Positions 837-37,957 of a stretch of DNA of 64,000 nt are shown piece after piece. This stretch comes from Trypanosoma brucei (Eukaryota): contig CH464491.1 of NCBI GenBank assembly GCA_000002445.1, positions 3,616,001-3,680,000 on the forward strand. The letters are read 5' to 3'. Position 1 is the stretch's first letter. Every line of letters begins with the position of its first letter. The notes under the pieces were generated by a model. That model saw only the letters and a program-made list of their open reading frames with translations, made no database searches and was not told the DNA's origin. The position numbers were made by a program, and so were the translations under genes.

Positions 837-2507
837 ATGGATATATTTAGTGCTCTTTCCACGGGAGCCAAATTTGAGCCCAAGAAACATGGAACTGCCA
901 TAAAGCGCTTCCGGCAGGCAAGTGGCAACAGGGAACAAACGGGGGCCCTGAATCTTGTGAGCCTTTCTCGAGGTAGCGTAGAGCTCCCAACGCCCAGCCA
1001 TACCCTCGAAATATTTGGTGTGCCAAAGAGGATGAGGTGCCAGGAAACTTCCGCCGAGGGGGACGAGGAGTCCAGAGGACGGTGTGACACAGATACTTCC
1101 AGTGCTGCAACTGGTCACAAACCTCTTAAAAACATGTCCGTGAAGAGGAGACGTAACATTTGGAGAAAGAATGAACTGGATGTCACAGGTATGGACGTAC
1201 CGCAGCCTATTGAACACTTCTCCCAACTCCTCAGGCCCCCACTTTCGCTTGATGAGTGTCTCATCTCCAATCTCTTTGAGCGGAACCACCGTATCCCGAC
1301 TCCAATACAGATGCAGACTATTCCTTGCTTGGTTCAGGGGAGGGATGTGCTAGCGTGCGCCCCCACAGGGTCCGGCAAAACAGTTGCCTTTCTTATCCCC
1401 ATGTTTGCTCGTTTGGGGAAGCCTGATAGGGATGCCGGGGTGCGTGCGTTGATAATTACCCCCACAATGGAACTGGCAGAGCAAATCGAGCGAGAGGCGT
1501 TTTTTCTCCTCAAAGGGAAAAGGTGGAAGTTGGTCCAACACGGGCAGACAACTCGAAACAAGGACATATTCATTACCACGCCTGGACGGGTGTCGACGTT
1601 ACTAGAGAGGAAGTTAGTTGATCTTAGTAACATTCAGTATCTCGTTTTTGACGAAGGAGATCGCCTGTGGGACTCTTCGACTGACAATCTCAGGGTGATG
1701 GATATTGTCCTTACGGCGTGCACTTATAAGGAGAAGGTTGTTGCTTTGTTTACAGCCACATTAAGTGAAAAAATTGAAGCAGCTGCACGATCTGTGATGG
1801 GTCCCGATCCTGTTCGGATCATCGTTTCTGGTCGTGCGAAGGCGAACAAGAATGTGAAGCAGGAACTTGTGTTCTGTGGTAATGAGCTTGGGAAGGTTGT
1901 GGCGATACGTAACATTGTGCGTGAGGGTGTGACACCACCTGTGCTTATCTTCGTTCAGAGCATCGAGCGAACAAAGGAGCTTCATGAAGAGATACAATGC
2001 CAGGGGCTTCGTATTGCCATTATGAATGCGAAGATGACACATGAGGAACGAGACGAAACTATGATGAATTTCCGGCTTGGAAAAATATGGGTACTCGTGA
2101 CTACTGAGCTTCTTTCACGGGGCATAGACTTCAAGAACGTTGGCACGGTTATAAATTTTGATATACCGACGACGGTGGAGTCCTACATCCACCGCGTTGG
2201 GAGGTGTGGAAGGGCTGGGAAGACAGGTAAGGCCATAACATTTTTTACTGAGGACGACAAACATCGTATCCCCCCTATCGCCCGTGTGATGAAAGAATCT
2301 GGGAGCCCCATCGAGGATTGGATGTTGGAAATAAAGACTCACCGTAGTGTCCGCCGCCGACTTCAGCGCACTACACCGCATCGGATGATAGTCAGTACAA
2401 GAAAGAGGATGCTCGTTGCGGATCAGCGAATGAAGCGGCAACTTCGGCGACTAGAGTACGAAAATGCACAAAAGGCTGAAGGCCAAGGCGTGGAAGAGGT
2501 GCAGTAG
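837..2507 (+). CDS. DEAD-box family ATP-dependent RNA helicase (DEGD variant; ROK1/DDX52-like)
   Basis: 556 aa. Motif I is APTGSGKT, Ia is PTMELAEQ, Ib is TPGR, motif II reads DEGD in place of DEAD, and motif VI is HRVGRCGRAG. A PTPIQ Q-motif lies upstream. The N- and C-terminal extensions are basic. Confidence 0.85.
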   Translation: MDIFSALSTGAKFEPKKHGTAIKRFRQASGNREQTGALNLVSLSRGSVELPTPSHTLEIFGVPKRMRCQETSAEGDEESRGRCDTDTSSAATGHKPLKNMSVKRRRNIWRKNELDVTGMDVPQPIEHFSQLLRPPLSLDECLISNLFERNHRIPTPIQMQTIPCLVQGRDVLACAPTGSGKTVAFLIPMFARLGKPDRDAGVRALIITPTMELAEQIEREAFFLLKGKRWKLVQHGQTTRNKDIFITTPGRVSTLLERKLVDLSNIQYLVFDEGDRLWDSSTDNLRVMDIVLTACTYKEKVVALFTATLSEKIEAAARSVMGPDPVRIIVSGRAKANKNVKQELVFCGNELGKVVAIRNIVREGVTPPVLIFVQSIERTKELHEEIQCQGLRIAIMNAKMTHEERDETMMNFRLGKIWVLVTTELLSRGIDFKNVGTVINFDIPTTVESYIHRVGRCGRAGKTGKAITFFTEDDKHRIPPIARVMKESGSPIEDWMLEIKTHRSVRRRLQRTTPHRMIVSTRKRMLVADQRMKRQLRRLEYENAQKAEGQGVEEVQ

Positions 2508-3419
2508 GACGAGGTTGTACGGTCTGGGAACTAACCATGTACTAATTAATAGTAAACGCAGCGCTTTCGAACAACATAACCTGTATCGGCCGCGTAGTCT
2601 CATTGCCCTTGCCTCTTTTCAACCCATTGATTAAAAAGGTCTGTGGCGGCGCCCGTGACCCCGTTGCAGTAGGATTACATCGGCAACACACTGTGTAGTA
2701 AGACATTTAATAATGTTTTAAAACAAATACGTGACGATAAATGGTGCTGAAGTGCGTTGCGTGCACCTGTTACCAAGAGGGTGAAGTGTGAGTACGTGAG
2801 GCTAGTGGGTGAGCCTAAACTCTTCCAATGTGTTGTTTTTAAAGATGAATTCATCGTCACATTTGCATTTCCTAACTTTTTTCTTTCTGGTTGAGCAAGG
2901 AGCCGAAGAAAGTGAGTTAGAAAGGAGTAGAGATGCATCTTTTTTTTTATTATTATTTTGTATTAGGATGCGGGAGTGTTCTCTCGGATGTGCGCGTGTG
3001 TGCCACAGCCGTCTCCGTTGTTGGCAACCAGGGGGAAAACCAGGGGGCCCATGCGCATTCGTCAGAAGTTCATTTCACATCCCGCGGGTAGCTGAAGGCT
3101 GTCAGGAAAAGCATGGCCAGGTACCCCCAACCCAATCGTGATTATGATGAGTGTGTGTGTGTTCACTTACCGGTGCTCTGGCATATTACGGGAGACGATT
3201 GATGTGCCCCTCACTCGGCAGGTGTTAGGGGGTGCGTTTGAAACAATCCAACAAGCCTGAGGTTCTCTTATTTCCAAAACCACGTGAGTTAAACCTACTC
3301 GGTTTGCTACCCGTTTCCATCCGATGAGCAAAGGGGCAGCGCATCAAATTTTCTTTGATTTGGTTACCATAAATAGCTGTTCTTCCGTTTTTTCTCGAAA
3401 AAAAAATGAAGCGTAACTG

Positions 3420-4592
3420 GTGAAGAAGGTATTAGTGATGGATTTAGGGGAAGATTCGACACTGCTCGCTGTGGCCCTGGATGGTGAGGACAAATATTGG
3501 CTTTGCCAACCCGTAACCGGTAAAAGACTTGGTCCTGAATGGAAGTTTTGTACTTGTTACTGGCTTTATCTTTTGGGGGACAACGAAGACCATGGAGACA
3601 AACCATGGTATAGAGAAGACTTGGGCGATATACTTGAAATCGGCTACAACGAGACCTCAAGAATTGGAAGGTACTCGGTCATCGATGATGCAGTGAAAGC
3701 AAAGAAATTCGTTGTGGAGGAAGGTGGTGTATCTAGAACCTTCTTCTTCATTGGCAACGACGAGCGTGAGGCCCTAGACGCCAAGTTTGAAGATCTTCTC
3801 AAACGCGAGGCGGCGCTTGCATCACACAAACCAGATGACGATGGTGATAAAGTGCAATCAAGTGTGAAGGCGAGCAAAGCCACCGCGGCAGAATACCCAA
3901 CCGTTAACTCCGACTCTGGACCCGGTAATGGTAAGCAAGTGGGTAACGAGGAAGTTTTTGCATGGCGAGAGCGGTACATTGTTGAACACGGGAACCGCAT
4001 TTTTTTCGTGTGCCCTGATGTTGATGGCAATAGCAGTGGGTTCAGAGTGGAGCGAATTGTGCGCAACGGCATGACGATTTTCTTGCTCTTCCACGATGAA
4101 GCTTCCCTTCCGTGTAGGGTAAGTGAATCGCATATTGGGGAGAAAGTTATCCATACTTCCATAATGAAAAACAGTGAGGGTAAAGTACTCATCATGAGCA
4201 CCCGGAAGCCTAATGAACCTATGTCAAAGAAAAAGGAGCGTGTCGAAACTCCTCCCCCCGAACCCCCACTCAAGGTTCAGAAAAAGGAATCTGTGAAAAC
4301 CACTGCTTCACACGATACCCCACTTAAGGCGATCGGAGTGAATATGTGGGTCGATTTTAAGGGGAAGGTGGAGGGCGTAACAGGTTTGGTGAATTCATTC
4401 CCCTTTTCAGGGGAGGTTGGAAACAAGATGCGTACGAGTGTTTTTCCTGGTGGCGTTTGTGTTACTTACGATTCTTCTATCGCGGCGAAGTTCGCGTTGA
4501 AGAAAAAGGCCGTTTCTTCTCCTACGGACAACGACATGGTTGGTTTGCTGGAAAATATACAACTGGCTAAGGAGCAGTTCAGTACTATTTAA
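3420..4592 (+). CDS. Hypothetical protein (no recognisable domain)
   Basis: 390 aa uninterrupted ORF in the same orientation as its neighbours. A Lys/Pro-rich linker (KKKERVETPPPEPPLKVQKK) is present. No family motif was recognised, and the start codon is uncertain (MKKVL or the downstream MDLGEDS). Confidence 0.45.
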   Translation: MKKVLVMDLGEDSTLLAVALDGEDKYWLCQPVTGKRLGPEWKFCTCYWLYLLGDNEDHGDKPWYREDLGDILEIGYNETSRIGRYSVIDDAVKAKKFVVEEGGVSRTFFFIGNDEREALDAKFEDLLKREAALASHKPDDDGDKVQSSVKASKATAAEYPTVNSDSGPGNGKQVGNEEVFAWRERYIVEHGNRIFFVCPDVDGNSSGFRVERIVRNGMTIFLLFHDEASLPCRVSESHIGEKVIHTSIMKNSEGKVLIMSTRKPNEPMSKKKERVETPPPEPPLKVQKKESVKTTASHDTPLKAIGVNMWVDFKGKVEGVTGLVNSFPFSGEVGNKMRTSVFPGGVCVTYDSSIAAKFALKKKAVSSPTDNDMVGLLENIQLAKEQFSTI

Positions 4593-4815
4593 TGCAGGTG
4601 AGGAAACAAATGGACGAAGCTTCTGCGGTTCATGATTGCTGGCCAGCAGGGGGCCCCACTGTGTTCGGTGCGATCCATTTTTTTTTCTGCTGATTTGTGT
4701 TTTCGTTTCTTTTTGTGGCGGGGGGAAGAAGTGAGTGGGGGAGGGCTGCGTATGTTTCTACCTTTTCTTATGTCCTCATTACCTTCTCCTGCAGCGACTA
4801 GCATCGAGGGGAAAC

Positions 4816-5757
4816 ATGTGGCGCTTTCGAGCGGTGTCGGCAATTGCTCCACGTGGTTGTTTCAGGTGCGTGTTTCAGAGCAAAGCCTTCGCTGCTGCCA
4901 GCAAAACCCTCCCTTGTACTCCAGAAGGGAAAAACCCGTATGATGTTCTTGAAGTCACTGTTACTAATTCTACGACACTGAACGACATATCGAAGCAGTT
5001 TAGAGAGCTTGTGGTCAGAAACCATCCCGACCAGCCTTGTGGGTCACACGAAAAGATGTCTGAGCTTAACGCAGCGTACAAAATTGTGAAGGAGCACCAC
5101 GAGGGCGTCCTCCGACGCTTGAAGGAGTACGAGGCTGACACTAAGGGGAATGAGGCCTTCCAGCAGCACAGGCGGTCGCGGGCTCAGGATGATAGGGATT
5201 TAGGTCGGACCGGTGGTGTATTCCGCAGGAACGCCAGGGCGGCGGAGCAAGCTTCTGCTTCTAAGAAGGCTCGTTCCTTACAGGAAATCACATCGTCGTG
5301 GAGCCGTTACAGGGAGGACACTGAGCATGCTGTTACCAGTATGTGCAATCGGTACGAGCTAGCCGTGGAAAAGGGATGCTTTTTTCGGAAGACGTCGATG
5401 CTTAACGAAATAACTGTGCGGGAAAGATGGCTACGGAAGAGTTACATCAAGGCGGTATGGGAGGAAGTTCACGAGCTACGAGGGGAATTGCTTCGTCGAG
5501 GGGCACGGAGTTCCCAGCAGTCTCAACTTGCGGAGGAGATGGTGTCCTTCGCGTCAGCAACTCAGAGGAAGTTGAATGAAGACTTTCAGCGGCTCACTCA
5601 GTTGAGTGTACAGTCACAAACCCGTCTGTTTCTTCAGAGAATATTAGTTGCGTTAGTCACGGTGGTTGTGTTTATTAAGTTGTGGCAGAGTTTGTTGTCA
5701 GGCATGTTCAGGAATTCCTTGACTGTGCGGTTTCGACAAGGGATTTTGAGCCATTAA
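4816..5757 (+). CDS. J-domain (DnaJ-like) protein with N-terminal presequence-like segment and C-terminal TM helix
   Basis: The J domain reads YDVLEV...KQFRELVVRNHPDQ...LNAAYKIV, with the HPD tripeptide. I chose the internal Met MWRFRAVSAIAPRG as the start because it looks like an amphipathic presequence; the ORF-track start at 4735 is probably 5' UTR. A hydrophobic C-terminus (LVALVTVVVFIKLW) is present. Confidence 0.65.
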   Translation: MWRFRAVSAIAPRGCFRCVFQSKAFAAASKTLPCTPEGKNPYDVLEVTVTNSTTLNDISKQFRELVVRNHPDQPCGSHEKMSELNAAYKIVKEHHEGVLRRLKEYEADTKGNEAFQQHRRSRAQDDRDLGRTGGVFRRNARAAEQASASKKARSLQEITSSWSRYREDTEHAVTSMCNRYELAVEKGCFFRKTSMLNEITVRERWLRKSYIKAVWEEVHELRGELLRRGARSSQQSQLAEEMVSFASATQRKLNEDFQRLTQLSVQSQTRLFLQRILVALVTVVVFIKLWQSLLSGMFRNSLTVRFRQGILSH

Positions 5758-5939
5758 GCGCCGCTGCTTACCGTGTGTGCTGGACAAACGGCCTCACTAT
5801 CGGATTCATGGTGATGTTTTAACCCTGCACTTCAAAAAGCCTATCAACTCTTTAGTAGTTGTCGTTGTGTATCGGACCCGATTTGGTCAGTTTGCCGCTG
5901 TTGTTGTAATACTTTTTCCGCTTCTGCCTTCGCCAGTCG

Positions 5940-8102
5940 ATGTCCTATTTGCCTTTCCTTGCTTATTTTTCTTTTCCCCGCCATTCTAGGGTCAGGGTCA
6001 CACGGCACATTTGTATGTCCTTTATCGGCCGCCGTTCGCCCATGGGAAGCTTGGACCGGGCTGCACAAACGGCCATGGCAATCGAGCTGGGCGCTTCCTT
6101 TGATCCCTTTGACGGAGTTGGAGCCAACGAAGTTGGACAGGTGCGACTGCGGTGGTGGGCGGATCATGTGGAACAGGAGCTCGACGCAAACCGTAGTCCA
6201 TTTGTCGCGGCGGAGATATTACTTAAACAGATGAATGAGTATGGAAATTCTTCTGATGAGTTGGAGGAACTTCTCCTAGCAACAATCCTTCCGGTACTCA
6301 GTCGCTGCACTTCTTACTTGGGAACCTACGGTGACGTATTTAATAAGGCTCTAAATGAGGTCATTCCCGCCATCATGTTTACGAGGACGCTAGCAACAAG
6401 TCACGGTGAGGTCCTCCAGCGGAGGTCATACGCCGAATGTTTCGCCTCTATTCTATGCAAATTTCAGTACCACGTGAAGCTGTCTTATTCTCTAAACCGA
6501 CGCGCCACGTTGGAGGACAGTGTGATGACCCGCGTCGTTCGGAGGCTTGACAACTTATGGATGAGGATGTGTTTCAGAGCGTGGAGGGCGCTGCGGAATA
6601 GCGTGGCTACGACCAAACGAAGCTTCCAGCGTTTGGCGAATAGAGGTGCTGCTTTGACTGTCGTGCCTGGACATATCCGGATGTGGCGCCGTCACGCCCA
6701 CTACGTGACACTAAAGGAGAAGTTATCCAAACACACTGCCCTAAACCAAGAGCTGGACAATTTGTATGCTGCCGAGCAGGCGGCCAAGAGTAGCCATGAA
6801 AGTATCATCCAGGAAGTTGAGGAAAAGAATAGGCTCATTAGTTTGACTACAGAGCGTTGCATGGAGGCGGAAGCCCGATTGGGTGAGCTTCAAAGTTTGA
6901 TGGAGGAGACAACTTCATCTCTGGAGGGTCATTGGAAGCAATGGAAAATAGCCATCAACTGTCTGTTTGGTGACGGCCGCGACAGCCTACCACCTGTGCA
7001 TGGAAATCTTCGCTCTGATCTTCAATCTATTGCGCAGAACATAACTGACACTGCTTTGCTTTTCCTGAAAGAGGCGAAAAAGCGCAAATGGAAGATGGAA
7101 AAAAGTACAATTGCCCAATACGTGAACCAAATGGGATTAGAGAAATGTGAAAACCAACAAACGGGACTTGATGACATTATTTCCACCCTCAGCCGTGTGT
7201 GTAAGCCAGTCATGCCGCCATTGCGCCTTCTTGACTTGATACGTGAAGATCAAGAGAAGTACGATCTAACTATTAAGTTTTTGTCGTGCGTGAACGGTGG
7301 TGGGCATTGTTCCCTTTTCATGAATGGCCACACGCTCGATGATGATGAGTTAAGTGTGGAAGGCGTACGGGACTTTGGAGTAAAGATGGTTTCACATGTC
7401 ACGGAGGGCGTAGGTAGTTTTCAGGTATGCCCTGATGCCAACGAGGATTATTTAAAGGCAATTCAAACCTGCTTAGCAGCAGATGAGCTTACCAAGGTGC
7501 ACGATTACCTGAGTAGAGTTTTCTTTGCCCTAGCGACGGGTGGTTTGCCTCTCAACAGGGAGAAAATTGAAAGGTGCATTGATAACCTTGTTGAGCCCCA
7601 TCACCGTCAGGTTGTGCATGCATTATATCCCTCGCAAGGAATAAAGAATTTTGCCGATTTAAGAAGTTACCTAACAAGGGTATCCAACTTTTGTCTATGT
7701 ACAATCACAACGTTGGTTGAATGCATTGAGAATCACTACGACGCAGATCCGAAGGAGGACCTTTTCTCTGTGCTGTTTGAGGAGGATGTTGTTACGTTCT
7801 TTGAGGAGCACGAAAAAGACATTCACAGGCTATTTGGGATGTTTAGAGACAAGAGGTTCCCTATGCTTCTGTCAAAAAGCCTCATCAAGCCGTTTTTGGT
7901 TGAGAAGTTTAATCTACTAGATAGTGAAGTTGATACTTTATTCCAACTCGGTGCCACTCCGGAGAAAATTACGAGGGATGAGTTCAAGAATTTCTTGACT
8001 GTACTTGCCGCGTTTTACACACCTTCTCCTTTTGTCCCACCGGTGAAGAAACTAGCAAGTGTGATAATGCAGTGCTCAGTTTCCTCAAAAGACGAGGCGT
8101 AG
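5940..8102 (+). CDS. Hypothetical large coiled-coil protein
   Basis: 720 aa ORF with a central heptad-like segment (LNQELDNLYAAEQAAKSSHESIIQEVEEKNRLISLTTERCMEAEARLGELQSLMEE). Basic IQ-like stretches (RMCFRAWRALRN, IRMWRRHAHYV) are also visible. The true start is probably an internal Met such as MSFIGRR or MGSLD. Confidence 0.5.
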   Translation: MSYLPFLAYFSFPRHSRVRVTRHICMSFIGRRSPMGSLDRAAQTAMAIELGASFDPFDGVGANEVGQVRLRWWADHVEQELDANRSPFVAAEILLKQMNEYGNSSDELEELLLATILPVLSRCTSYLGTYGDVFNKALNEVIPAIMFTRTLATSHGEVLQRRSYAECFASILCKFQYHVKLSYSLNRRATLEDSVMTRVVRRLDNLWMRMCFRAWRALRNSVATTKRSFQRLANRGAALTVVPGHIRMWRRHAHYVTLKEKLSKHTALNQELDNLYAAEQAAKSSHESIIQEVEEKNRLISLTTERCMEAEARLGELQSLMEETTSSLEGHWKQWKIAINCLFGDGRDSLPPVHGNLRSDLQSIAQNITDTALLFLKEAKKRKWKMEKSTIAQYVNQMGLEKCENQQTGLDDIISTLSRVCKPVMPPLRLLDLIREDQEKYDLTIKFLSCVNGGGHCSLFMNGHTLDDDELSVEGVRDFGVKMVSHVTEGVGSFQVCPDANEDYLKAIQTCLAADELTKVHDYLSRVFFALATGGLPLNREKIERCIDNLVEPHHRQVVHALYPSQGIKNFADLRSYLTRVSNFCLCTITTLVECIENHYDADPKEDLFSVLFEEDVVTFFEEHEKDIHRLFGMFRDKRFPMLLSKSLIKPFLVEKFNLLDSEVDTLFQLGATPEKITRDEFKNFLTVLAAFYTPSPFVPPVKKLASVIMQCSVSSKDEA

Positions 8103-8253
8103 CTTTTGTGTGCGATGTACTGTAGATATGAGCAAAAAACATATATATGCTTTGTGTAACTATTCATTTGTATGCACATATTGTGCCTGTTCACTTTAAG
8201 GAGCTTACTACTAGAAATACGTTCTGATTAACAAAACATTCTTTGGGATTAAT

Positions 8254-8332
8254 TTCTCCCCTCCACTTCCCTTCCCCTCCCTTTTGTTTTTGTTTTTGCT
8301 TTTGGATTTATTTTTAGCCTTCCTGGCTAGTG
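8254..8332 (+). promoter_or_regulatory. Polypyrimidine tract, candidate trans-splicing/polyadenylation-coupling signal upstream of the WD40 gene
   Basis: An almost pure C/T run (ctccacttcccttcccctcccttttgtttttgtttttgcttttgg) sits about 40-110 nt upstream of the ATG at 8372, followed by AG dinucleotides. This is the kinetoplastid arrangement. Confidence 0.5.
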
Positions 8333-8371
8333 AGAAAGCTGTGGGTGAGGGAGAGTGGTATGTGAAGCCAA

Positions 8372-9343
8372 ATGTACTCATGTAAGACGGCCCACACCAC
8401 ATTTGTGCACCACATGGCGGTCAACTCATCGGGCACGTTGCTTGCATCAGGTTCCAGCGACAAGGGAGTAAACGTATTTTATCGTCCTCCATCCGAAGTG
8501 GTAACAGGATCGTGGTCCCTTTGCTGTGTGTTGAAAGACCACGTTGCTACAGTCACCCGCGTCGCTTGGTGCCAGCATCGAGAGCACGGATCTATGCTTG
8601 CAACTGTTGGTGCCGATCGTTGGATATATGTCTACAAGATAAACGTCACAACTCAAGATGGAAAGGTAGTGGGTAATGCTGTGCGGTACTCACCAGTGCG
8701 GGGGTATGAAAAAGACGTTATTACGGATGTGGCGTTTGTCCCGCCTCGGCAGCACCAGGTGCTTCTTCTCTCCACCGCCTCTCTGGATGGCTGGGTGCGG
8801 CTGTACGACATACAGCCGCTGCAATTTCTTTGTAAGTACACGGTGACACAAGAGTCGGACATTTGTAGGCCTTTGGGAACCCGCAGTGGTGGCATCACAT
8901 CCACTGCATGGTTCCCCAGCTCAGTTGATGAAACGATGACTCTGGCGGTTGGTTGCATGAACGGGTGTTTTTACCTTTACAAGTTTTGTAAGGAAAGAAA
9001 CCAATTTAAGCGGGTGTATAACGCTCTTCCGCAACGCATAGAATCAACGATCCATCACATAGTTTGGGCTCCGCCCGTGGGAAGGTGCTTTCAGTTACTC
9101 TCTCTGTGCTGTCGCAGTTCGGTGTATATTGTTAGGTTGAACTGTGTGTCACCAAGTGTTGAGGATTACCAGTGCGAAGTGTTTGTTTGGCCACACGGGG
9201 CAGTCTGTACGGCGTGGAGCCATTCTGCGACGCTGTTGTATTTGATTGATGACGATAACCCGCCAAGGGTGACCGTTCTTCAAGCGAGGGACCTCACTGA
9301 TCACCAGTCGTGGGAAAAGTTGCTAAGTAAGCCAACCGAATAA
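8372..9343 (+). CDS. WD40-repeat protein, Sec13/Seh1-like
   Basis: The N-terminus HHMAVNSSGTLLASGSSDKGVNVF followed by LKDHVATVTRVAWCQ...MLATVGADRWIYVY follows the blade pattern of Sec13 (HDAQMDYYG.RLATCSSDRSVKIF ... GHEGPVWQVAWAHP). At 323 aa the size also fits Sec13. Confidence 0.55.
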   Translation: MYSCKTAHTTFVHHMAVNSSGTLLASGSSDKGVNVFYRPPSEVVTGSWSLCCVLKDHVATVTRVAWCQHREHGSMLATVGADRWIYVYKINVTTQDGKVVGNAVRYSPVRGYEKDVITDVAFVPPRQHQVLLLSTASLDGWVRLYDIQPLQFLCKYTVTQESDICRPLGTRSGGITSTAWFPSSVDETMTLAVGCMNGCFYLYKFCKERNQFKRVYNALPQRIESTIHHIVWAPPVGRCFQLLSLCCRSSVYIVRLNCVSPSVEDYQCEVFVWPHGAVCTAWSHSATLLYLIDDDNPPRVTVLQARDLTDHQSWEKLLSKPTE

Positions 9344-33564: not shown

Positions 33565-33879
33565 AGGCCGGTAGGGAGGACGTTTACAGCGCCTCACGAA
33601 ACGCTTATATAACATCGTACTTGCACACTTGCTTCAGTGCGTTGGTTGATACACACAAATCATTTATGCTGCCTCCCTTTCCTTATCGTCTTTTGGTGAG
33701 AAACAACCTACTTGTGTCTAAACTTTCCACGGTGCCTTTTAGTTCACCTCTGGTTCTTTGCATAATGGCATTATAACGCAGCATCTAACGCTTTGACTGA
33801 AAAGTAAGGGTTCCCACCTTTCACCTACCTTTCTGCCCCTCACGCTTTCACATGGGCGCGTACCATATAAAAATGAAGC

Positions 33880-34712
33880 ACTTTTACCTCGGACATCGAG
33901 TCATAAAAAATTAAGGAAAAAAGGAATGGCCCCAAAGTCTGCTACAAAGTCTGCTGCCGCTACCAAGGCGTCTGCACCGAAAAATGATCCCAAGAAGAAC
34001 GCCCCGAAAGCTGCAGCACCCAAACCAGCAGCAACTGCGCCGAAGGCTGCTGCCGCAAAGGAGGCGAAGGCACGCCCCGCTGCCGGCACCCACAACGGTG
34101 TGTATGTGAAGAACTGGGGTCAGGGTTCCGTTACTGACGCCACAAGGATCTTCAGTGCTGCTGGCAAGGTTGTCAGTGCTCAGATCCGTCGGCGCCGCTA
34201 CGCCATTATCTTCTTCGAGAACGCCGCAGCCGTGAGGAAGGCGATTGATCTATTCAATGAAAAGGAGGTACTTGGCGCTAAAGTGACCGTAAGCCCTGCC
34301 AAAACCAGCCCGAAGCCTGACCCGCATGAGGGCTCTTCCGTTGTGTTCCTGTCGCCCATCTTCCGTACGTCGACAACGAATGGGCAAATTCGTGAACTCT
34401 TCACCGGTATGAGAGTTTTGCGCATTCGGACGTACCATCAGAACTATGCTTACGTGTACCTTGACTCGGCTGCTGCAGCGCAGAAGTTTGTGAAGGAGAA
34501 GAACGGCACCGAGTTCCGCGGCAAGAAGCTACGTGTGGCTCTTTCAACTCGCTCGCTTCAGAAGGAAAAGGACCGTGCGGAGCGCGCGAACCTCCTCTCG
34601 GATGCCCACAACTTCAAGAAGGATGCCAAGAAGGACATCAAGAGGGATGATAAGAAGGATCCAAAGAAGGATTCAAGGAGGAATGAAAAGAAGGATGCCA
34701 AGAGGAAGCAGT
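33880..34712 (+). repeat. Tandem gene duplication unit, copy 1 (about 830 bp; includes 46 bp of 5' flank plus the RRM-protein CDS)
   Basis: Sequence similarity begins at cacttt(t/c)acctcggacatcgag upstream of the ATG. From the GCCAAGGCGTCTGCACCGAAAAATGATCCC segment to the stop region the two copies are identical except for one SNP. Confidence 0.9.
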
Positions 34713-34714
34713 GA
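33926..34714 (+). CDS. NRBD1: Nucleolar-type RNA-binding protein with two RRMs (p34-like copy of a tandem pair)
   Basis: It has an N-terminal Ala/Lys/Pro-rich region, RRM1 (GVYVKNWGQGSVTDATRIFSAAGKVVSAQI...AIIFFENAAAVRKAIDLFN), RRM2 (VVFLSPIFRTSTTNGQIRELF...YAYVYLDSAAAAQKFVKEKNG) and C-terminal KKD(x) repeats. This architecture, and the existence of a tandem twin lacking a 17-aa insert, match what I recall of T. brucei p34/p37 (NRBD1/2). The symbol is therefore from recollection, not from a search. Confidence 0.75.
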   Translation: MAPKSATKSAAATKASAPKNDPKKNAPKAAAPKPAATAPKAAAAKEAKARPAAGTHNGVYVKNWGQGSVTDATRIFSAAGKVVSAQIRRRRYAIIFFENAAAVRKAIDLFNEKEVLGAKVTVSPAKTSPKPDPHEGSSVVFLSPIFRTSTTNGQIRELFTGMRVLRIRTYHQNYAYVYLDSAAAAQKFVKEKNGTEFRGKKLRVALSTRSLQKEKDRAERANLLSDAHNFKKDAKKDIKRDDKKDPKKDSRRNEKKDAKRKQ

Positions 34715-35034
34715 GTTCGTCTTCATTTTTTATCGAATGCTCAGGGTAAAACGTTAATATTTGTTTTATTTATTTATTTTCCGTCGTAGCGTTTATCTGG
34801 TTTGTAGTACCTTCGTGACTATTATTCCCGTTTCTGAAGCAACGCAGTTTTGTAATGGGAGTTTCGATGAGCTAGCTGTTTGCGGTACACACTACACTTT
34901 TTTTCGTTTGCCTCAGTCTTGCGGCCAGAGTGCTGAACCGAGAAAGCTCAAGGAAGTTATTCTCGGTCGTGTGAATGTCACTTCCCTTGTCTTTAGGTTA
35001 GTTATTTTTACCCCTTTCCTCATCAAAAAGCCAT

Positions 35035-35793
35035 ATGCTGCTGAAAAAGTTGCCGGTTTTTGTCGGTACGGAGTTTTTGACCGACGCGCATCTGGCCATA
35101 ATGACTTCAGGAGGTGTTTCTATACCGCTAGAAATGGAAAGCAGGTGCAAAGAACTTCATCCTAACCATCGGGTACCGTACGTTCTTTCACGTCTGGCGG
35201 CTTCTTCTGCCCTATCGACTGTTCTGGGAAAACCTATTACCTTTTCCGGTAGTCGTCACGATGCAGAACAGTACGATGCAAATCTCTCCCTTTCTCACGA
35301 AGACTTTGTTGGGGCTGCAGTGGCTTGGCGGAAGGGAACGTCAAATGCCATTGGTATTGACGTGGTTGATGTGCAGCAGCTTGAACGCGTTGTAAAGCGC
35401 TTCCCGCAGTTTGCTGCGCGTTTCATGCCTCGCTGCGATCTCAGCGCTCTGAGTTCCGTTGATGCGTGTAATATTGAGCGAACTTTCCGTGGTCACGCCG
35501 ACCAGGTTACTGTTACGTTGTCTCAGCACTGGGGTTTGCGTGAATGTTGTGTCAAACTTGTTGGCGTTGAGGGCCGCACGTTTCCTTTTGAGTGTTTCCG
35601 TGGTCCTCGTGCTTATTTTCCCGACCGTTTCAAGGCACAAGTGGTGGAGGAAGGCTCTGATGCTTTGCGGGCTGCAGGCTTGAATTCCAGTCTATTTGTC
35701 TCAACTTGGCCCGAGCTTTTGAAACTACCCTCCGGGGATGTTAAACCATATATCGTAGTCGTGGCTGCGTGCCCCCGTAAGAGTGCCGTTTAA
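35035..35793 (+). CDS. 4'-phosphopantetheinyl transferase-like protein (between the two RRM gene copies)
   Basis: LGKPITF ... NLSLSHEDFVGAAVAW ... AIGIDVVDV ... WGLRECCVKLVG follows the order of PPTase motifs (GKP; FN-I/L-SHS; G-I/V-D; W/KE..K..G). The start is uncertain (MLLKK or MTSGG). Confidence 0.45.
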   Translation: MLLKKLPVFVGTEFLTDAHLAIMTSGGVSIPLEMESRCKELHPNHRVPYVLSRLAASSALSTVLGKPITFSGSRHDAEQYDANLSLSHEDFVGAAVAWRKGTSNAIGIDVVDVQQLERVVKRFPQFAARFMPRCDLSALSSVDACNIERTFRGHADQVTVTLSQHWGLRECCVKLVGVEGRTFPFECFRGPRAYFPDRFKAQVVEEGSDALRAAGLNSSLFVSTWPELLKLPSGDVKPYIVVVAACPRKSAV

Positions 35794-35959
35794 CAGGGAG
35801 TTGTTCCGCTTATATTTGCTTTGTGTTGCGACACCGAAGTGGTGATGTGGCCTGTAAATGGTACAAACATCAGTTTCATAACATTGTCTTTGAGGCGGTA
35901 CGACTTTTTAATTTTCGCCTTATTGTTGTTTCTTGATGCCCTTTAGCAAGTAAGCAAAA

Positions 35960-36840
35960 CACTTTCACCTCGGACATCGAGTAATAAAAAGCAAAGGAAA
36001 GAATGGCCCCAAAGTCTGCTGCAAAGCCTGCGGCTTCCGGTAAAAACGCACCCGCTCCAAAATCAGCACCTGCTGCAAAGTCTGCTCCCCCCGCCAAGGC
36101 GTCTGCACCGAAAAATGATCCCAAGAAGAACGCCCCGAAAGCTGCAGCACCCAAACCAGCAGCAACTGCGCCGAAGGCTGCTGCCGCAAAGGAGGCGAAG
36201 GCACGCCCCGCTGCCGGCACCCACAACGGTGTGTATGTGAAGAACTGGGGTCAGGGTTCCGTTACTGACGCCACAAGGATCTTCAGTGCTGCTGGCAAGG
36301 TTGTCAGTGCTCAGATCCGTCGGCGCCGCTACGCCATTATCTTCTTCGAGAACGCCGCAGCCGTGAGGAAGGCGATTGATCTATTCAATGAAAAGGAGGT
36401 ACTTGGCGCTAAAGTGACCGTAAGCCCTGCCAAAACCAGCCCGAAGCCTGACCCGCATGAGGGCTCTTCCGTTGTGTTCCTGTCGCCCATCTTCCGTACG
36501 TCGACAACGAATGGGCAAATTCGTGAACTCTTCACCGGTATGAGAGTTTTGCGCATTCGGACGTACCGTCAGAACTATGCTTACGTGTACCTTGACTCGG
36601 CTGCTGCAGCGCAGAAGTTTGTGAAGGAGAAGAACGGCACCGAGTTCCGCGGCAAGAAGCTACGTGTGGCTCTTTCAACTCGCTCGCTTCAGAAGGAAAA
36701 GGACCGTGCGGAGCGCGCGAACCTCCTCTCGGATGCCCACAACTTCAAGAAGGATGCCAAGAAGGACATCAAGAGGGATGATAAGAAGGATCCAAAGAAG
36801 GATTCAAGGAGGAATGAAAAGAAGGATGCCAAGAGGAAGT
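35960..36840 (+). repeat. Tandem gene duplication unit, copy 2 (contains 51-nt insertion near the 5' end of the CDS)
   Basis: Same as copy 1. Similarity ends exactly at the stop codon (aagcagtgagttcg versus aagtaaaaaagat), and the period between copies is about 2080 bp. Confidence 0.9.
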
Positions 36841-36842
36841 AA
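36003..36842 (+). CDS. NRBD2: Nucleolar-type RNA-binding protein with two RRMs (p37-like copy; 17-aa N-terminal insert relative to the upstream copy)
   Basis: From ...ASAPKNDPKK to the penultimate codons it is identical to 33926..34714, except for one A/G change (His to Arg in RTYHQNY/RTYRQNY). It carries an extra AKPAASGKNAPAPKSAPAAKSAPP segment near the N-terminus and a different stop context (KRK* versus KRKQ*). Confidence 0.75.
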   Translation: MAPKSAAKPAASGKNAPAPKSAPAAKSAPPAKASAPKNDPKKNAPKAAAPKPAATAPKAAAAKEAKARPAAGTHNGVYVKNWGQGSVTDATRIFSAAGKVVSAQIRRRRYAIIFFENAAAVRKAIDLFNEKEVLGAKVTVSPAKTSPKPDPHEGSSVVFLSPIFRTSTTNGQIRELFTGMRVLRIRTYRQNYAYVYLDSAAAAQKFVKEKNGTEFRGKKLRVALSTRSLQKEKDRAERANLLSDAHNFKKDAKKDIKRDDKKDPKKDSRRNEKKDAKRK

Positions 36843-37093
36843 AAAAGATATGCTTGCTTTTTCCTTTTTTCTTTTCTGTTCTTAAATATAAAAAAATATT
36901 TGTTAAGTTAATACTTTTTTACGTATTGAAAGCAGCGATGTTTTGTGTTCCCCGTTCATATAGGCTCCTGTGGATGCTGGTTATTTCGGGTTCCGGGACT
37001 TGTACTTCTGTTTTCTTTTTTGTCCTGTTTTCCTTTCTTCCTGCAATGACGCAAACAGCAAAGACAAGTGGTCTTCATCGAAGGTAACGAGTT

Positions 37094-37957
37094 GTGTCCG
37101 ATTGTGGCGTTATGGCAGGTTTCACCGAGACACCCAGTTGGCCTTCGCTGTCGTGTGAGCAATCCAGCGCGGCCGCTGTGTCGGTCTCGTACTCACCTTT
37201 TGTAGTAGAAATGTCGTACTATACCATTGCTATCCAGGCGTATAGCATGACAAGGTATGTTGTTGAGAATTTGAGGCTGGACTCGGCGGTGGTTGGAACT
37301 GCAATGACGTACTGGCACATATTTGTGTCTGTGCATGGTTTGAAGAAGGTTGATGAGATTGTTCTTAGTGCTGCGTGTACTTTTTTGGCGAGCAAGGTAG
37401 AGCACCACAAGGTGCGGCTGAGCGATATCGTTGCCCTTGTTTTCGAGGTAGACCCTGTCGGAGGTGTGATGGAGTCTTGGCGTGATGTGGTTGGTCAAGC
37501 AGAGTTGCTCCTGTGCTACACGCTGAAGTTTAATTTTCAGGTCATACATCCTGTCAATCGTATTAACGAGTTAGTTTTTGATGGTAACAAAGCTGTTTTG
37601 GAGTGTGCACAACGCCTTTTTCTTCTGTCGTTTGTAACCCCTTTGTGCACGAGAGCTTCGGCCGAGGAAATTGTAGAGGCCCTCGTGTATTTGGCGGCAG
37701 ATGGGGCAGAACGCCTGGAGGTTTATGCGAATGGCTTTAACATCACTTCGTCTGAGCGGCGTGATGGCATTATCAGTGTTATGCTTGACGCCCTTGTTGC
37801 CATGCGTAAGACCACCAAGTTACCCAAAATAGATAATGTGATCTCTGCGCGACGTAAAAGACTTCGTGAACAGGAGTCCACTAGGCCGTCGGTTGCCTGC
37901 TCTAGTGTTGGAACGGCAAGTACGGATAATACACCTTGTGCACCATCGGTGGAGTGA
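37094..37957 (+). CDS. Cyclin-domain protein (transcription-type cyclin fold)
   Basis: The cyclin box reads YTIAIQAYSMTRYVVENLRLDSAVVGTAMTYWHIFVSVHGLKKVDEIVLSAACTFLASKVEHHKVRLSDIV, followed by a second helical repeat. The start is uncertain (MSDCG, MAGFTE or MSYYT). Confidence 0.6.
   Translation: MSDCGVMAGFTETPSWPSLSCEQSSAAAVSVSYSPFVVEMSYYTIAIQAYSMTRYVVENLRLDSAVVGTAMTYWHIFVSVHGLKKVDEIVLSAACTFLASKVEHHKVRLSDIVALVFEVDPVGGVMESWRDVVGQAELLLCYTLKFNFQVIHPVNRINELVFDGNKAVLECAQRLFLLSFVTPLCTRASAEEIVEALVYLAADGAERLEVYANGFNITSSERRDGIISVMLDALVAMRKTTKLPKIDNVISARRKRLREQESTRPSVACSSVGTASTDNTPCAPSVE

What the first reader, a model, noticed from the sequence alone, without database searches (positions are those of the whole stretch)
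33880..36842. Near-identical tandem pair of two-RRM nucleolar-type RNA-binding protein genes, differing by a 51-nt N-terminal indel, with an unrelated PPTase-like gene between them
The two CDSs (33926..34714 and 36003..36842) are nucleotide-identical over about 740 nt, apart from one A/G substitution and a 51-nt in-frame insertion near the 5' end of copy 2. Their flanks are unrelated: similarity starts 46 nt upstream of the ATG and stops exactly at the stop codon. Identity confined to the CDS between paralogs whose flanks have diverged is the signature of ongoing gene conversion, not of a very recent segmental duplication. The indel sits in an Ala/Lys/Pro-rich low-complexity N-terminus that is itself internally repetitive (KSAPAAK/KAAAPK), so replication slippage could have produced it. 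The architecture matches what I recall of T. brucei p34/p37, which are 5S rRNA/L5-binding and differ by an 18-residue N-terminal insert. The gene between the copies (35035..35793) carries 4'-phosphopantetheinyl transferase motifs.
Basis: partly seen in the sequence, partly recalled or inferred. Interest (0 to 1): 0.55.

Follow-up and report, generated by a model that had tools for sequence, protein, structure and literature searches.

The report
Known P34/P37 genes, kept identical
These are the well-studied Trypanosoma brucei ribosome-assembly genes P34 and P37 (NRBD1 and NRBD2), an old duplicate pair whose coding sequences are kept almost identical by repeated copying between the two genes, so the finding is correct but largely already known.

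The parts
33876..33925 (+). Copy 1 upstream homology block (probable 5' UTR of NRBD1/P34)
   Evidence: About 85% identical to 35957..36002 (6 mismatches plus a 4-nt indel). These paralogue differences are the same in three T. brucei-group genomes. That it is the 5' UTR is inferred; the splice-acceptor site was not mapped.
33888..33900 (+). Conserved palindromic 5' UTR element CTCGG-ACA-TCGAG (copy 1)
   Evidence: Present upstream of every NRBD copy in the 11 trypanosomatid species sampled, and nowhere else in the fetched loci. Two matches in the window against 0.18 expected. No Rfam match.
33926..34714 (+). NRBD1 / P34 CDS (262 aa, Tb11.01.5570 = Tb927.11.14000)
   Evidence: Exact match to EAN80344.1/XP_829456.1. 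Two RRM_1 stretches, 44.6 bits. Gene ID from PMC5176191.
33963..34708 (+). Copy 1 side of the near-perfect identity tract (746 nt, 1 mismatch at 34437)
   Evidence: In the other two strains the perfect tract reaches back to the indel at 33939.
34611..34710 (+). 12-nt periodic repeats encoding the C-terminal KKDX region (copy 1; copy 2 equivalent at 36742..36841)
   Evidence: Repeat family D1. The KKDX region is described in PMC4488245. This extension is absent from the orthologues of the other species examined.
34715..35034 (+). Unique 3' flank of NRBD1 (3' UTR plus intergenic region up to gene X)
   Evidence: No similarity to 36843..37093.
35035..35793 (+). Intervening gene X (252 aa; by its position between Tb927.11.14000 and Tb927.11.14020 presumably Tb927.11.14010, an ID not looked up here; annotated 'hypothetical protein, conserved'), with a phosphopantetheinyl-transferase fold
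35957..36002 (+). Copy 2 upstream homology block (probable 5' UTR of NRBD2/P37), containing the palindrome at 35969..35981
36003..36842 (+). NRBD2 / P37 CDS (279 aa, Tb927.11.14020)
   Evidence: Exact match to EAN80346.1, with the identical protein in T. b. gambiense and a third genome. Two RRM_1 stretches.
36016..36069 (+). 54-nt (18-codon) segment present in P37 and absent from P34, bounded by the 11-nt direct repeat CTGCTGCAAAG (36016 and 36070)
   Evidence: Deleting it from P37 reproduces exactly the P34 N-terminus of T. b. gambiense and of the 1997 clone.
36094..36839 (+). Copy 2 side of the near-perfect identity tract
36843..37093 (+). Unique 3' flank of NRBD2 (up to the cyclin-like gene at 37094..37957)
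   Evidence: No similarity to the copy 1 flank. Cyclin_N hit for the downstream ORF.

Best explanation
The two ORFs are the T. brucei genes for P34 (NRBD1) and P37 (NRBD2). These are kinetoplastid-specific proteins with two RRM domains that bind 5S rRNA and ribosomal protein L5 and are essential for 60S subunit biogenesis (function taken from the literature). They are an old duplicate pair separated by one unrelated gene. That arrangement was already present in the common ancestor of the genus Trypanosoma, and possibly earlier. The interior of the coding sequence is repeatedly homogenised by intrachromosomal gene conversion. In T. brucei the converted tract runs from just 3' of the 18-codon indel to the last shared sense codon. 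The 5' UTR, the indel and the C-terminal Gln/stop lie outside the tract and stay fixed, so the cell keeps two isoforms with different N-termini and completely different 3' UTRs. Most likely (inferred), the indel arose by deletion or slippage between 11-nt direct repeats in the repetitive Ala/Pro/Lys-coding region. Also inferred: the unique 3' UTRs allow the reported stage-specific abundance, with P34 higher in procyclic forms and P37 higher in bloodstream forms. The intervening gene is a probable 4'-phosphopantetheinyl transferase and takes no part in the duplication.
For: Identity: exact protein matches to the P34/NRBD1 and P37/NRBD2 records; two RRM domains; 18-aa insertion and 5S/L5 binding in PMC3257258 and PMC4488245; gene IDs in PMC5176191. 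Old duplication: NRBD–X–NRBD–cyclin is found in T. vivax, T. theileri, T. cruzi, T. melophagium and Angomonas deanei. T. congolense gene numbers (NRBD 14360, X 14370) fit the same order. X orthologues are only 48-57% identical within Trypanosoma and 38% in Angomonas, as expected for an old locus. Concerted evolution: within-genome nucleotide distance is 0.000-0.003 against 0.078-0.398 between species. Third-codon-position distance is 0.00-0.01 within genomes, 0.20 between the sister species T. theileri and T. melophagium, and 0.37-0.59 for other species pairs. The NJ tree pairs the paralogues by species in all six cases. Sharp tract edges: identity ends within 4 nt of the stop codon in all six species with the interrupted arrangement. 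Ongoing conversion within T. brucei: at 34030/36161 and 34039/36170, TREU927 has A,G in both copies while DAL972 and GCA_003543875.1 have G,A in both copies. At 34054/36185 the T allele is in NRBD2 only in DAL972 and in both copies in GCA_003543875.1. All three NRBD2-variable sites coincide with NRBD1-variable sites; chance is roughly (13/770)^3, about 5e-6. Indel origin: an exact 11-nt direct repeat flanks the 54-nt segment. T. cruzi has an independent 24-nt indel inside 12-nt periodic repeats of the same region, and the N-terminal region varies in length in other species.
Against: No conversion event is observed directly. The inference rests on three T. brucei-group assemblies and one genome for each other species. 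Positional orthology of the intergenic flanks could not be shown by sequence even between the sister species T. theileri and T. melophagium, so the age of the duplication rests on gene order. Leishmaniinae have a different layout (X–NRBD in L. major, X–NRBD–NRBD in Leptomonas). The Angomonas arrangement could therefore be convergent, and more than one duplication may have occurred in the family. Whether the 3' UTRs cause the differential expression was not tested here. All ten private substitutions fall in NRBD1 and none in NRBD2, and simple symmetric conversion does not predict this.
Confidence: 0.88

Rival explanations
1. A very recent segmental duplication in the T. brucei lineage, with too little time for the copies to diverge and no gene conversion needed.
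For: Within a single genome, near-identity (1 mismatch in 746 nt) is what a young duplicate would show.
Against: The same arrangement, with the same intervening gene, is found in five other species spanning the genus and in Angomonas. The flanks show no residual homology. The 5' UTR block is already about 15% diverged while the CDS interior is 0.1% diverged. Strain-specific states are shared by both copies. Six independent recent duplications into the same position would be needed.
Confidence: 0.03
2. An old duplication whose copies stay identical purely through strong purifying selection on an essential protein, with no sequence exchange.
For: P34/P37 are essential (PMC4488245), and the RRM core is well conserved between species (63-82% amino-acid identity for the trypanosomatid orthologues of the species compared here).
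Against: Selection on the protein cannot hold synonymous sites identical. Third-position distance is 0.00-0.01 within genomes, 0.20 between the closest species pair and 0.37-0.59 between the others. Both copies change together between strains and between species.
Confidence: 0.02
3. The constant 3' edge of the tract at the stop codon reflects the breakpoint of the original duplication. There was never any homology beyond it, so conversion cannot extend further, and selection to keep two different 3' UTRs is not the cause.
For: The 3' edge falls within 4 nt of the stop codon in all six species with the interrupted arrangement, whereas the 5' edge varies from 39 to 430 nt upstream of the ATG. 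A fixed edge is what an inherited breakpoint predicts. In Leptomonas, where the copies are directly tandem, the repeat runs 106 nt past the stop.
Against: A duplication breakpoint falling exactly at a stop codon is an a priori unlikely coincidence. P34 and P37 are reported to differ in abundance between life stages (PMC4488245), and in trypanosomes that kind of control usually resides in 3' UTRs (general knowledge). The two explanations do not exclude each other.
Confidence: 0.4
4. Assembly artefact: one gene was represented twice, or two alleles were placed in tandem.
For: Near-identical repeats are a common source of assembly errors.
Against: P34 and P37 were cloned independently in 1997 (AAB81432/AAB81433) and are seen as two protein bands on western blots (PMC4488245). 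The same two-copy locus occurs in three independent T. brucei-group assemblies with fixed copy-specific UTRs.
Confidence: 0.01

Closest known systems
T. brucei P34 and P37 (NRBD1 / NRBD2; Tb927.11.14000 and Tb927.11.14020)
   Same: They are these very genes. The protein sequences match exactly, with two RRMs, an Ala/Pro/Lys-rich N-terminus, a KKDX C-terminus and an 18-aa N-terminal difference (PMC4488245, PMC3257258).
   Different: Nothing differs at the gene level. The papers I could search do not discuss gene conversion, tract boundaries, the conserved gene order or the flanking direct repeat.
Concerted evolution of tandem gene arrays in T. brucei (Jackson 2007, PMC1855330)
   Same: Duplicates within a species cluster by species and are homogenised, probably by gene conversion. 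That paper notes that structural heterogeneity which physically separates duplicates allows differentiation.
   Different: This pair is not in that paper's main text or held supplements. That may be because an unrelated gene interrupts the pair, but I did not check the paper's selection criteria. Here the tract is confined to the CDS interior, and the arrangement is conserved across the genus.
T. cruzi TcRRM1/TcRRM2, TcP37/NRBD and TcNRBD1 (TcCLB.511727.270 / .290)
   Same: They are the orthologous pair in the same NRBD–X–NRBD order, nearly identical to each other, with an N-terminal length difference. They are reported as 'organised in tandem' (PMC5070865).
   Different: The T. cruzi indel is 8 aa and arose independently in 12-nt repeats. 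The proteins lack the KKDX C-terminal extension (PMC4488245).
4'-phosphopantetheinyl transferases (AcpS and Sfp/PptT/PcpS types), for the intervening gene X
   Different: Sequence scores are below curated thresholds (Pfam 19.2 < 25; TIGR00556 24.6 < 45.35). Foldseek against the PDB found nothing. The profile search of PDB sequences was not significant. Activity and substrate are untested.

Membership tests
P34/P37 (NRBD) family of kinetoplastid RNA-binding proteins | Sequence identity with the described T. brucei P34 and P37 proteins | tested here: met
   Exact full-length matches to EAN80344.1 and EAN80346.1. The same 90% cluster holds AAB81432/AAB81433 (the 1997 clones) and T. b. gambiense NRBD1; the gambiense NRBD2 record is identical to the window's P37.
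P34/P37 (NRBD) family of kinetoplastid RNA-binding proteins | Two RNA recognition motifs | tested here: met
   Pfam RRM_1, 2 stretches, 44.5-44.6 bits against a cut-off of 20.7, for both proteins.
P34/P37 (NRBD) family of kinetoplastid RNA-binding proteins | Ala/Pro/Lys-rich N-terminus with an 18-aa segment present in P37 only, and a KKDX-repeat C-terminus | tested here: met
   54-nt (18-codon) insertion at 36016..36069. KKDX-coding 12-nt repeats. Described in PMC4488245.
P34/P37 (NRBD) family of kinetoplastid RNA-binding proteins | Binding to 5S rRNA and ribosomal protein L5; essential for 60S biogenesis | not testable with these tools
   Taken from the literature only (PMC3257258, PMC3409183, PMC4488245).
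Concerted evolution by gene conversion between paralogues | The duplication predates speciation, yet paralogues are closer within a species than orthologues between species | tested here: met
   Shared NRBD–X–NRBD order in six species. Distances 0-0.003 within and 0.078-0.398 between species; the NJ tree pairs paralogues by species.
Concerted evolution by gene conversion between paralogues | Identity extends to synonymous sites (so it is not explained by protein-level selection) | tested here: met
   Third-codon-position p-distance is 0.00-0.01 within genomes, 0.20 between the sister species and 0.37-0.59 between the other species.
Concerted evolution by gene conversion between paralogues | Discrete tract with unrelated flanks | tested here: met
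   The tract ends within 4 nt of the stop codon in six species.
Concerted evolution by gene conversion between paralogues | Polymorphisms shared between paralogues, or co-varying paralogous sites, within a species | tested here: met
   Three sites out of 770 (34030/36161, 34039/36170, 34054/36185) across three genomes. The sample is small.
Concerted evolution by gene conversion between paralogues | Direct observation of a conversion event or its recombination intermediates | not testable with these tools
   This needs experimental lineages or deep population sequencing.
4'-phosphopantetheinyl transferase superfamily (gene X) | Score above the curated family threshold (Pfam PF01648 ACPS; NCBIfam TIGR00556) | tested here: not met
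   19.2 bits against 25, with only 3 of 10 orthologues matching at E <= 0.1. 24.6 bits against 45.35.
4'-phosphopantetheinyl transferase superfamily (gene X) | PPTase alpha/beta fold | tested here: met
   [not shown]
4'-phosphopantetheinyl transferase superfamily (gene X) | Conserved Mg-binding Asp and catalytic Glu/Lys (the G-x-D and W/F-x-x-K/R-E-x-x-x-K motifs) | tested here: inconclusive
   D109, E170 and K174 are invariant in 9-10 orthologues.
4'-phosphopantetheinyl transferase superfamily (gene X) | Transfer of phosphopantetheine from CoA to a carrier protein | not testable with these tools
   Needs a biochemical assay.

The most novel reading that the evidence does not exclude
The palindromic element CCUCG(A/G)-NCN-UCGAGUAA(U)AAAA lies 30-55 nt upstream of the start codon of every NRBD gene copy in the 11 trypanosomatid species sampled (Trypanosoma, Leishmania, Leptomonas, Angomonas, Phytomonas), inside UTRs that otherwise cannot be aligned. 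It could be an undescribed cis-regulatory element of the mRNA, for example a small 5' UTR hairpin or protein-binding site that ties synthesis of this 5S RNP factor to ribosome production. Its conservation would also explain why paralogue similarity always extends a few dozen bases upstream of the ATG.
Probability: 0.35. Interest if true: 0.45.

Novelty: already known. Interest (0 to 1): 0.22.

Why it matters
P34/P37 are parasite-specific, essential ribosome-assembly factors that have been pursued as drug targets, so their gene structure matters. The genes, their near-identity and the 18-aa difference have been known since 1997, though. This analysis adds an evolutionary footnote. The pair is an ancient interrupted duplicate, kept identical by gene conversion across the genus. 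The only fixed differences between the isoforms sit at the two edges of the converted tract. That means the His/Arg and N-terminal substitutions in the reference strain are strain variants and not features of the isoforms. It is also a practical reminder that short reads cannot be assigned to P34 or P37 except at the indel and the UTRs. The conserved 5' UTR element and the probable phosphopantetheinyl transferase between the copies are small leads for specialists.

Tried and rejected
2. A profile of the X orthologues against PDB sequences was not significant (AcpS hits at E 0.36-0.9).
4. T. congolense NRBD (P0012) is not on record in the contig index, so no T. congolense locus could be read.
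5. Positional orthology of the unique flanks between T. theileri and T. melophagium gave only two short 83% matches, both downstream of copy 2, and nothing for the other flanks. T. brucei flanks gave nothing meaningful against other species (one 24-nt match in T. vivax).
6. Jackson 2007 (main text and supplements) does not list this gene pair. No paper combines NRBD1/2 with 'gene conversion'.
7. Rfam with permissive thresholds over 33600..37200 found no match.
8. The 5' UTR hairpin is predicted in every species but is weak (-3.7 to -4.4 kcal/mol) and no better than shuffles, so RNA structure is not demonstrated.
9. The idea that the UTR element mimics the 5S rRNA LoopA/StemV site bound by P34/P37 fails: only a trivial 5-mer is shared with the published oligo.
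Full report
WHAT IS THERE. The region holds three ORFs on the + strand: 33926..34714 (262 aa), 35035..35793 (252 aa) and 36003..36842 (279 aa). A local alignment of the first and third genes with their flanks gives the following picture.
- There is an upstream block, 33876..33919 versus 35957..36000, with 6 mismatches followed by a 4-nt indel.
- The 2 nt before each ATG and the first 13 nt of the CDS are identical.
- Copy 2 carries a 54-nt insertion (36016..36069).
- A 770-nt block follows (33939..34708 versus 36070..36839) with 6 mismatches. Five of these cluster at 33944-33962 and one lies at 34437/36568.
- The last 746 nt therefore differ at one base.
- Copy 1 then reads CAG TGA and copy 2 reads TAA. 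Nothing aligns beyond that point.

The exception is the indel, which is 54 nt (18 codons) and not 51. The figure of 51 is the net difference in length, because copy 1 has one extra Gln codon.

WHAT THE GENES ARE. Both proteins are found letter for letter in public records of T. brucei brucei TREU927: EAN80344.1 (Tb11.01.5570) and EAN80346.1. Their 90%-identity cluster also holds the original 1997 clones AAB81432/AAB81433 and T. b. gambiense NRBD1; the gambiense NRBD2 record is identical to the window's P37. The current gene IDs are Tb927.11.14000 (NRBD1 = P34) and Tb927.11.14020 (NRBD2 = P37) (PMC5176191). Both proteins have two RRM_1 matches above threshold.

The literature describes them as follows (PMC3257258; PMC4488245):
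- they are trypanosome-specific and essential;
- they are nearly identical apart from an 18-aa N-terminal insertion in P37;
- they bind 5S rRNA and ribosomal protein L5;
- they differ in abundance between stages, with P34 higher in procyclic forms and P37 higher in bloodstream forms.

IS IT GENE CONVERSION OR A YOUNG DUPLICATION? I fetched the orthologous loci. The order NRBD–X–NRBD–cyclin is present in these species:

| Species | Locus |
|---|---|
| T. vivax | L001/L002 |
| T. theileri | L004 |
| T. cruzi | L009/L010 |
| T. melophagium | L011 |
| Angomonas deanei (outside the genus) | L012 |

T. congolense gene numbers (NRBD 14360, X 14370) fit the same order. The X orthologues are only 48-57% identical within Trypanosoma and 38% in Angomonas, so the locus is old.

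Despite that age, the two NRBD copies are essentially identical within each genome. There are 0 differences in the CDS of T. vivax, T. theileri, T. melophagium and Angomonas, and 3 mismatches plus one 24-nt indel across the 813-nt repeat in T. cruzi. On 218 ungapped codons:
- the nucleotide distance between paralogues is 0.000-0.003, against 0.078 (T. theileri versus T. melophagium) to 0.398 between species;
- the third-codon-position distance is 0.00-0.01 within genomes, 0.20 between the sister species and 0.37-0.59 between the other species;
- a neighbour-joining tree pairs the paralogues by species in all six cases.

Protein-level selection cannot hold synonymous sites identical, and six independent recent duplications into the same position are implausible. 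This is concerted evolution.

EVIDENCE THAT IT IS STILL GOING ON IN T. BRUCEI. The P37 protein is identical in two further genomes, which gave me the loci of T. b. gambiense DAL972 (L016) and assembly GCA_003543875.1 (L017). In the 770-nt shared block there are 13 variable sites across the six sequences.
- At 34030/36161 and 34039/36170, TREU927 has A and G in both copies. The other two genomes have G and A in both copies.
- At 34054/36185 the T allele is in NRBD2 only in DAL972, in both copies in GCA_003543875.1, and in neither copy in TREU927.
- All three sites that vary in NRBD2 are thus also variable at the paralogous position of NRBD1, with the same alleles. By chance this is about (13/770)^3, or 5e-6.
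- The six 5' UTR differences, the 54-nt indel and the CAG-TGA versus TAA ending are identical in all three genomes.

In T. brucei the exchanged tract is therefore bounded by the indel on the 5' side and by the last shared sense codon on the 3' side. The only fixed differences between the isoforms sit at those two edges. The His171/Arg difference and the five clustered N-terminal substitutions seen in this window are private to TREU927 NRBD1. In the other strains and in the 1997 clone, P34 is exactly P37 minus 18 residues plus a terminal Gln.

TRACT EDGES. In the six species with the interrupted arrangement, identity ends within 4 nt of the stop codon. The 5' edge varies:

| Species | 5' edge (nt upstream of the ATG) |
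|---|---|
| T. cruzi | 39 |
| T. brucei | 46-50 |
| T. melophagium | 57-58 |
| T. theileri | 67 |
| Angomonas | 74-75 |
| T. vivax | 430 |

In T. vivax the repeat starts 3 nt after the stop of the (uncalled) epimerase gene and contains the last 32 nt of the X coding sequence. Sequence native to the region upstream of copy 2 has therefore overwritten the region upstream of copy 1, which is a directional event.

The constant 3' edge has two possible explanations. It could be the inherited breakpoint of the original duplication, or it could reflect selection to keep two different 3' UTRs. I cannot separate the two, and they are compatible. In Leptomonas pyrrhocoris the layout is X–NRBD–NRBD, directly tandem, and the repeat runs 106 nt past the stop. 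L. major and Phytomonas have X followed by a single NRBD. The family history therefore includes more than one rearrangement, and the Angomonas arrangement may or may not be homologous to the Trypanosoma one. The conclusion for the genus Trypanosoma does not depend on that.

THE INDEL. The 54-nt segment is bounded by an exact 11-nt direct repeat (CTGCTGCAAAG at 36016 and 36070). This is what deletion or slippage between short repeats leaves behind. T. cruzi has an independent 24-nt indel within 12-nt periodic repeats of the same region. The Ala/Pro/Lys region also varies widely in length and is internally repetitive in other species.

THE MIDDLE GENE. X is annotated 'hypothetical protein, conserved' in T. 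brucei. Its T. rangeli and T. conorhini orthologues are annotated 'holo-[acyl-carrier-protein] synthase'.
- Sequence evidence is below threshold: Pfam ACPS 19.2 bits against 25, with only 3 of 10 orthologues matching; TIGR00556 24.6 bits against 45.35; and the PDB profile search was not significant.
- An AlphaFold model from nine orthologues is confident (pLDDT 81.6, pTM 0.82).
- D109 (in GIDVVD), E170 and K174 (in W..RE...K) are invariant.

So 'PPTase-like' is a fair description. The fold test is met, the curated sequence thresholds are not, and activity is untested. X is unrelated to the duplication.

SOMETHING NEW IN PASSING. Every NRBD copy in every trypanosomatid sampled carries the palindrome CTCG(A/G)-NCN-TCGAG followed by TAA(T)AAAA, 30-55 nt upstream of the ATG. 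The UTRs around it are otherwise unalignable.
- It occurs only there in the fetched loci, and twice in the window against 0.18 expected.
- The four outer stem pairs are invariant. The fifth is A-U, or G-U in T. brucei and L. major. The loop varies (ACA, ACT, ACG, CCT, CCG).
- The hairpin is thermodynamically weak and no better than shuffles, and there are no double compensatory changes. Conservation is shown; structure is not.
- It has no Rfam match, and I found no description of it.
- Bodo saltans lacks the strict motif.

VERDICT. The gene pair is already known, and concerted evolution of duplicated genes in T. brucei is a known phenomenon (PMC1855330), although this pair is not listed there. 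The added value is modest: a clean, genus-wide example with defined tract edges, a clear separation of fixed isoform differences from strain variants, fold-level support for a PPTase between the copies, and a conserved 5' UTR element that may merit a specialist's look.

Noticed in passing
window 33888-33900 and 35969-35981; also L002 5974/8207, L003 4724, L004 4036/5953, L005 5947, L009 3942/5989, L011 3984/5914, L012 3907/5850, L014 3241/4949, L015 4970: A conserved palindromic 5' UTR element, CTCG(A/G)-NCN-TCGAG followed by TAA(T)AAAA, lies upstream of every NRBD copy in the 11 trypanosomatid species sampled and nowhere else in the fetched loci. The stem arms are invariant, one pair switches between A-U and G-U, and the loop varies. 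It has no Rfam match, I found no description of it, and the predicted hairpin is weak. Bodo saltans lacks the strict motif.
   Followed up: partly
L002 5571-6697 vs 7804-8930 (T. vivax): The T. vivax repeat is 1127 nt with one mismatch. It starts 3 nt after the stop of the epimerase gene and includes the last 32 nt of the X coding sequence. The whole epimerase–NRBD1 intergenic region has therefore been replaced by a copy of the X–NRBD2 junction, which is a directional conversion or re-duplication event. The epimerase gene (tblastn 4629-5564, 70% identity) is not called in that annotation.
   Followed up: partly
L003 (T. grayi JMRU01000239.1) 3542-6516: T. grayi shows epimerase, a single NRBD and cyclin, with no X gene. 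No T. grayi X protein appeared in the homologue search. This is either an assembly collapse of the two identical copies or a real deletion of X and one copy by recombination between the repeats.
   Followed up: no
L014 (Leptomonas pyrrhocoris) 1734-5811; L005 (L. major) 4152-6708; L015 (Phytomonas) 3726-5747: Leishmaniinae and Phytomonas have a different layout. A longer X homologue (346-391 aa, with insertions) is followed by one NRBD (L. major, Phytomonas) or by two directly tandem NRBD copies (Leptomonas; 936-nt repeat, 99.6% identical, extending 106 nt past the stop). X and NRBD are neighbours in all 10 trypanosomatid species examined that have an X gene; T. grayi shows no X and Bodo is not syntenic.
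   Followed up: partly
window 33939-34708 vs 36070-36839, with L016 and L017: All ten strain-private substitutions in the shared block fall in NRBD1 (six in TREU927, one in DAL972, three in GCA_003543875.1) and none in NRBD2. This suggests asymmetric constraint, biased conversion direction, or assembly errors in one copy.
   Followed up: no
window 33944-33962: TREU927 NRBD1 has five substitutions within 19 nt (protein KSAAATK instead of KSAPPAK). This looks like one templated patch, not five independent mutations. The 1997 P37 clone has an intermediate version (KSAPATK), and a similar string (CTGCTGCCGC) occurs further along the same gene.
   Followed up: no
L009 3973-4100 and 6020-6170 (T. 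cruzi): The T. cruzi paralogues (249 and 257 aa) differ by an independent 24-nt (8-aa) indel inside 12-nt periodic KPA(A/S) repeats. This parallels the T. brucei P34/P37 difference but has a separate origin.
   Followed up: partly
L017 (GCA_003543875.1) 1919-2707 and 1204-1557: In this assembly the NRBD1 ORF is intact but not called as a gene, and the upstream epimerase is called as only 117 aa. Both look like annotation or assembly-quality problems, not biology.
   Followed up: no
window 34611-34710 and 36742-36841: The C-terminal KKDX region is encoded by 12-nt periodic repeats. In this sample it is specific to T. brucei: T. congolense, T. vivax, T. cruzi, T. theileri and the non-Trypanosoma species end soon after the second RRM.
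   Followed up: no
[not shown]
   Followed up: yes
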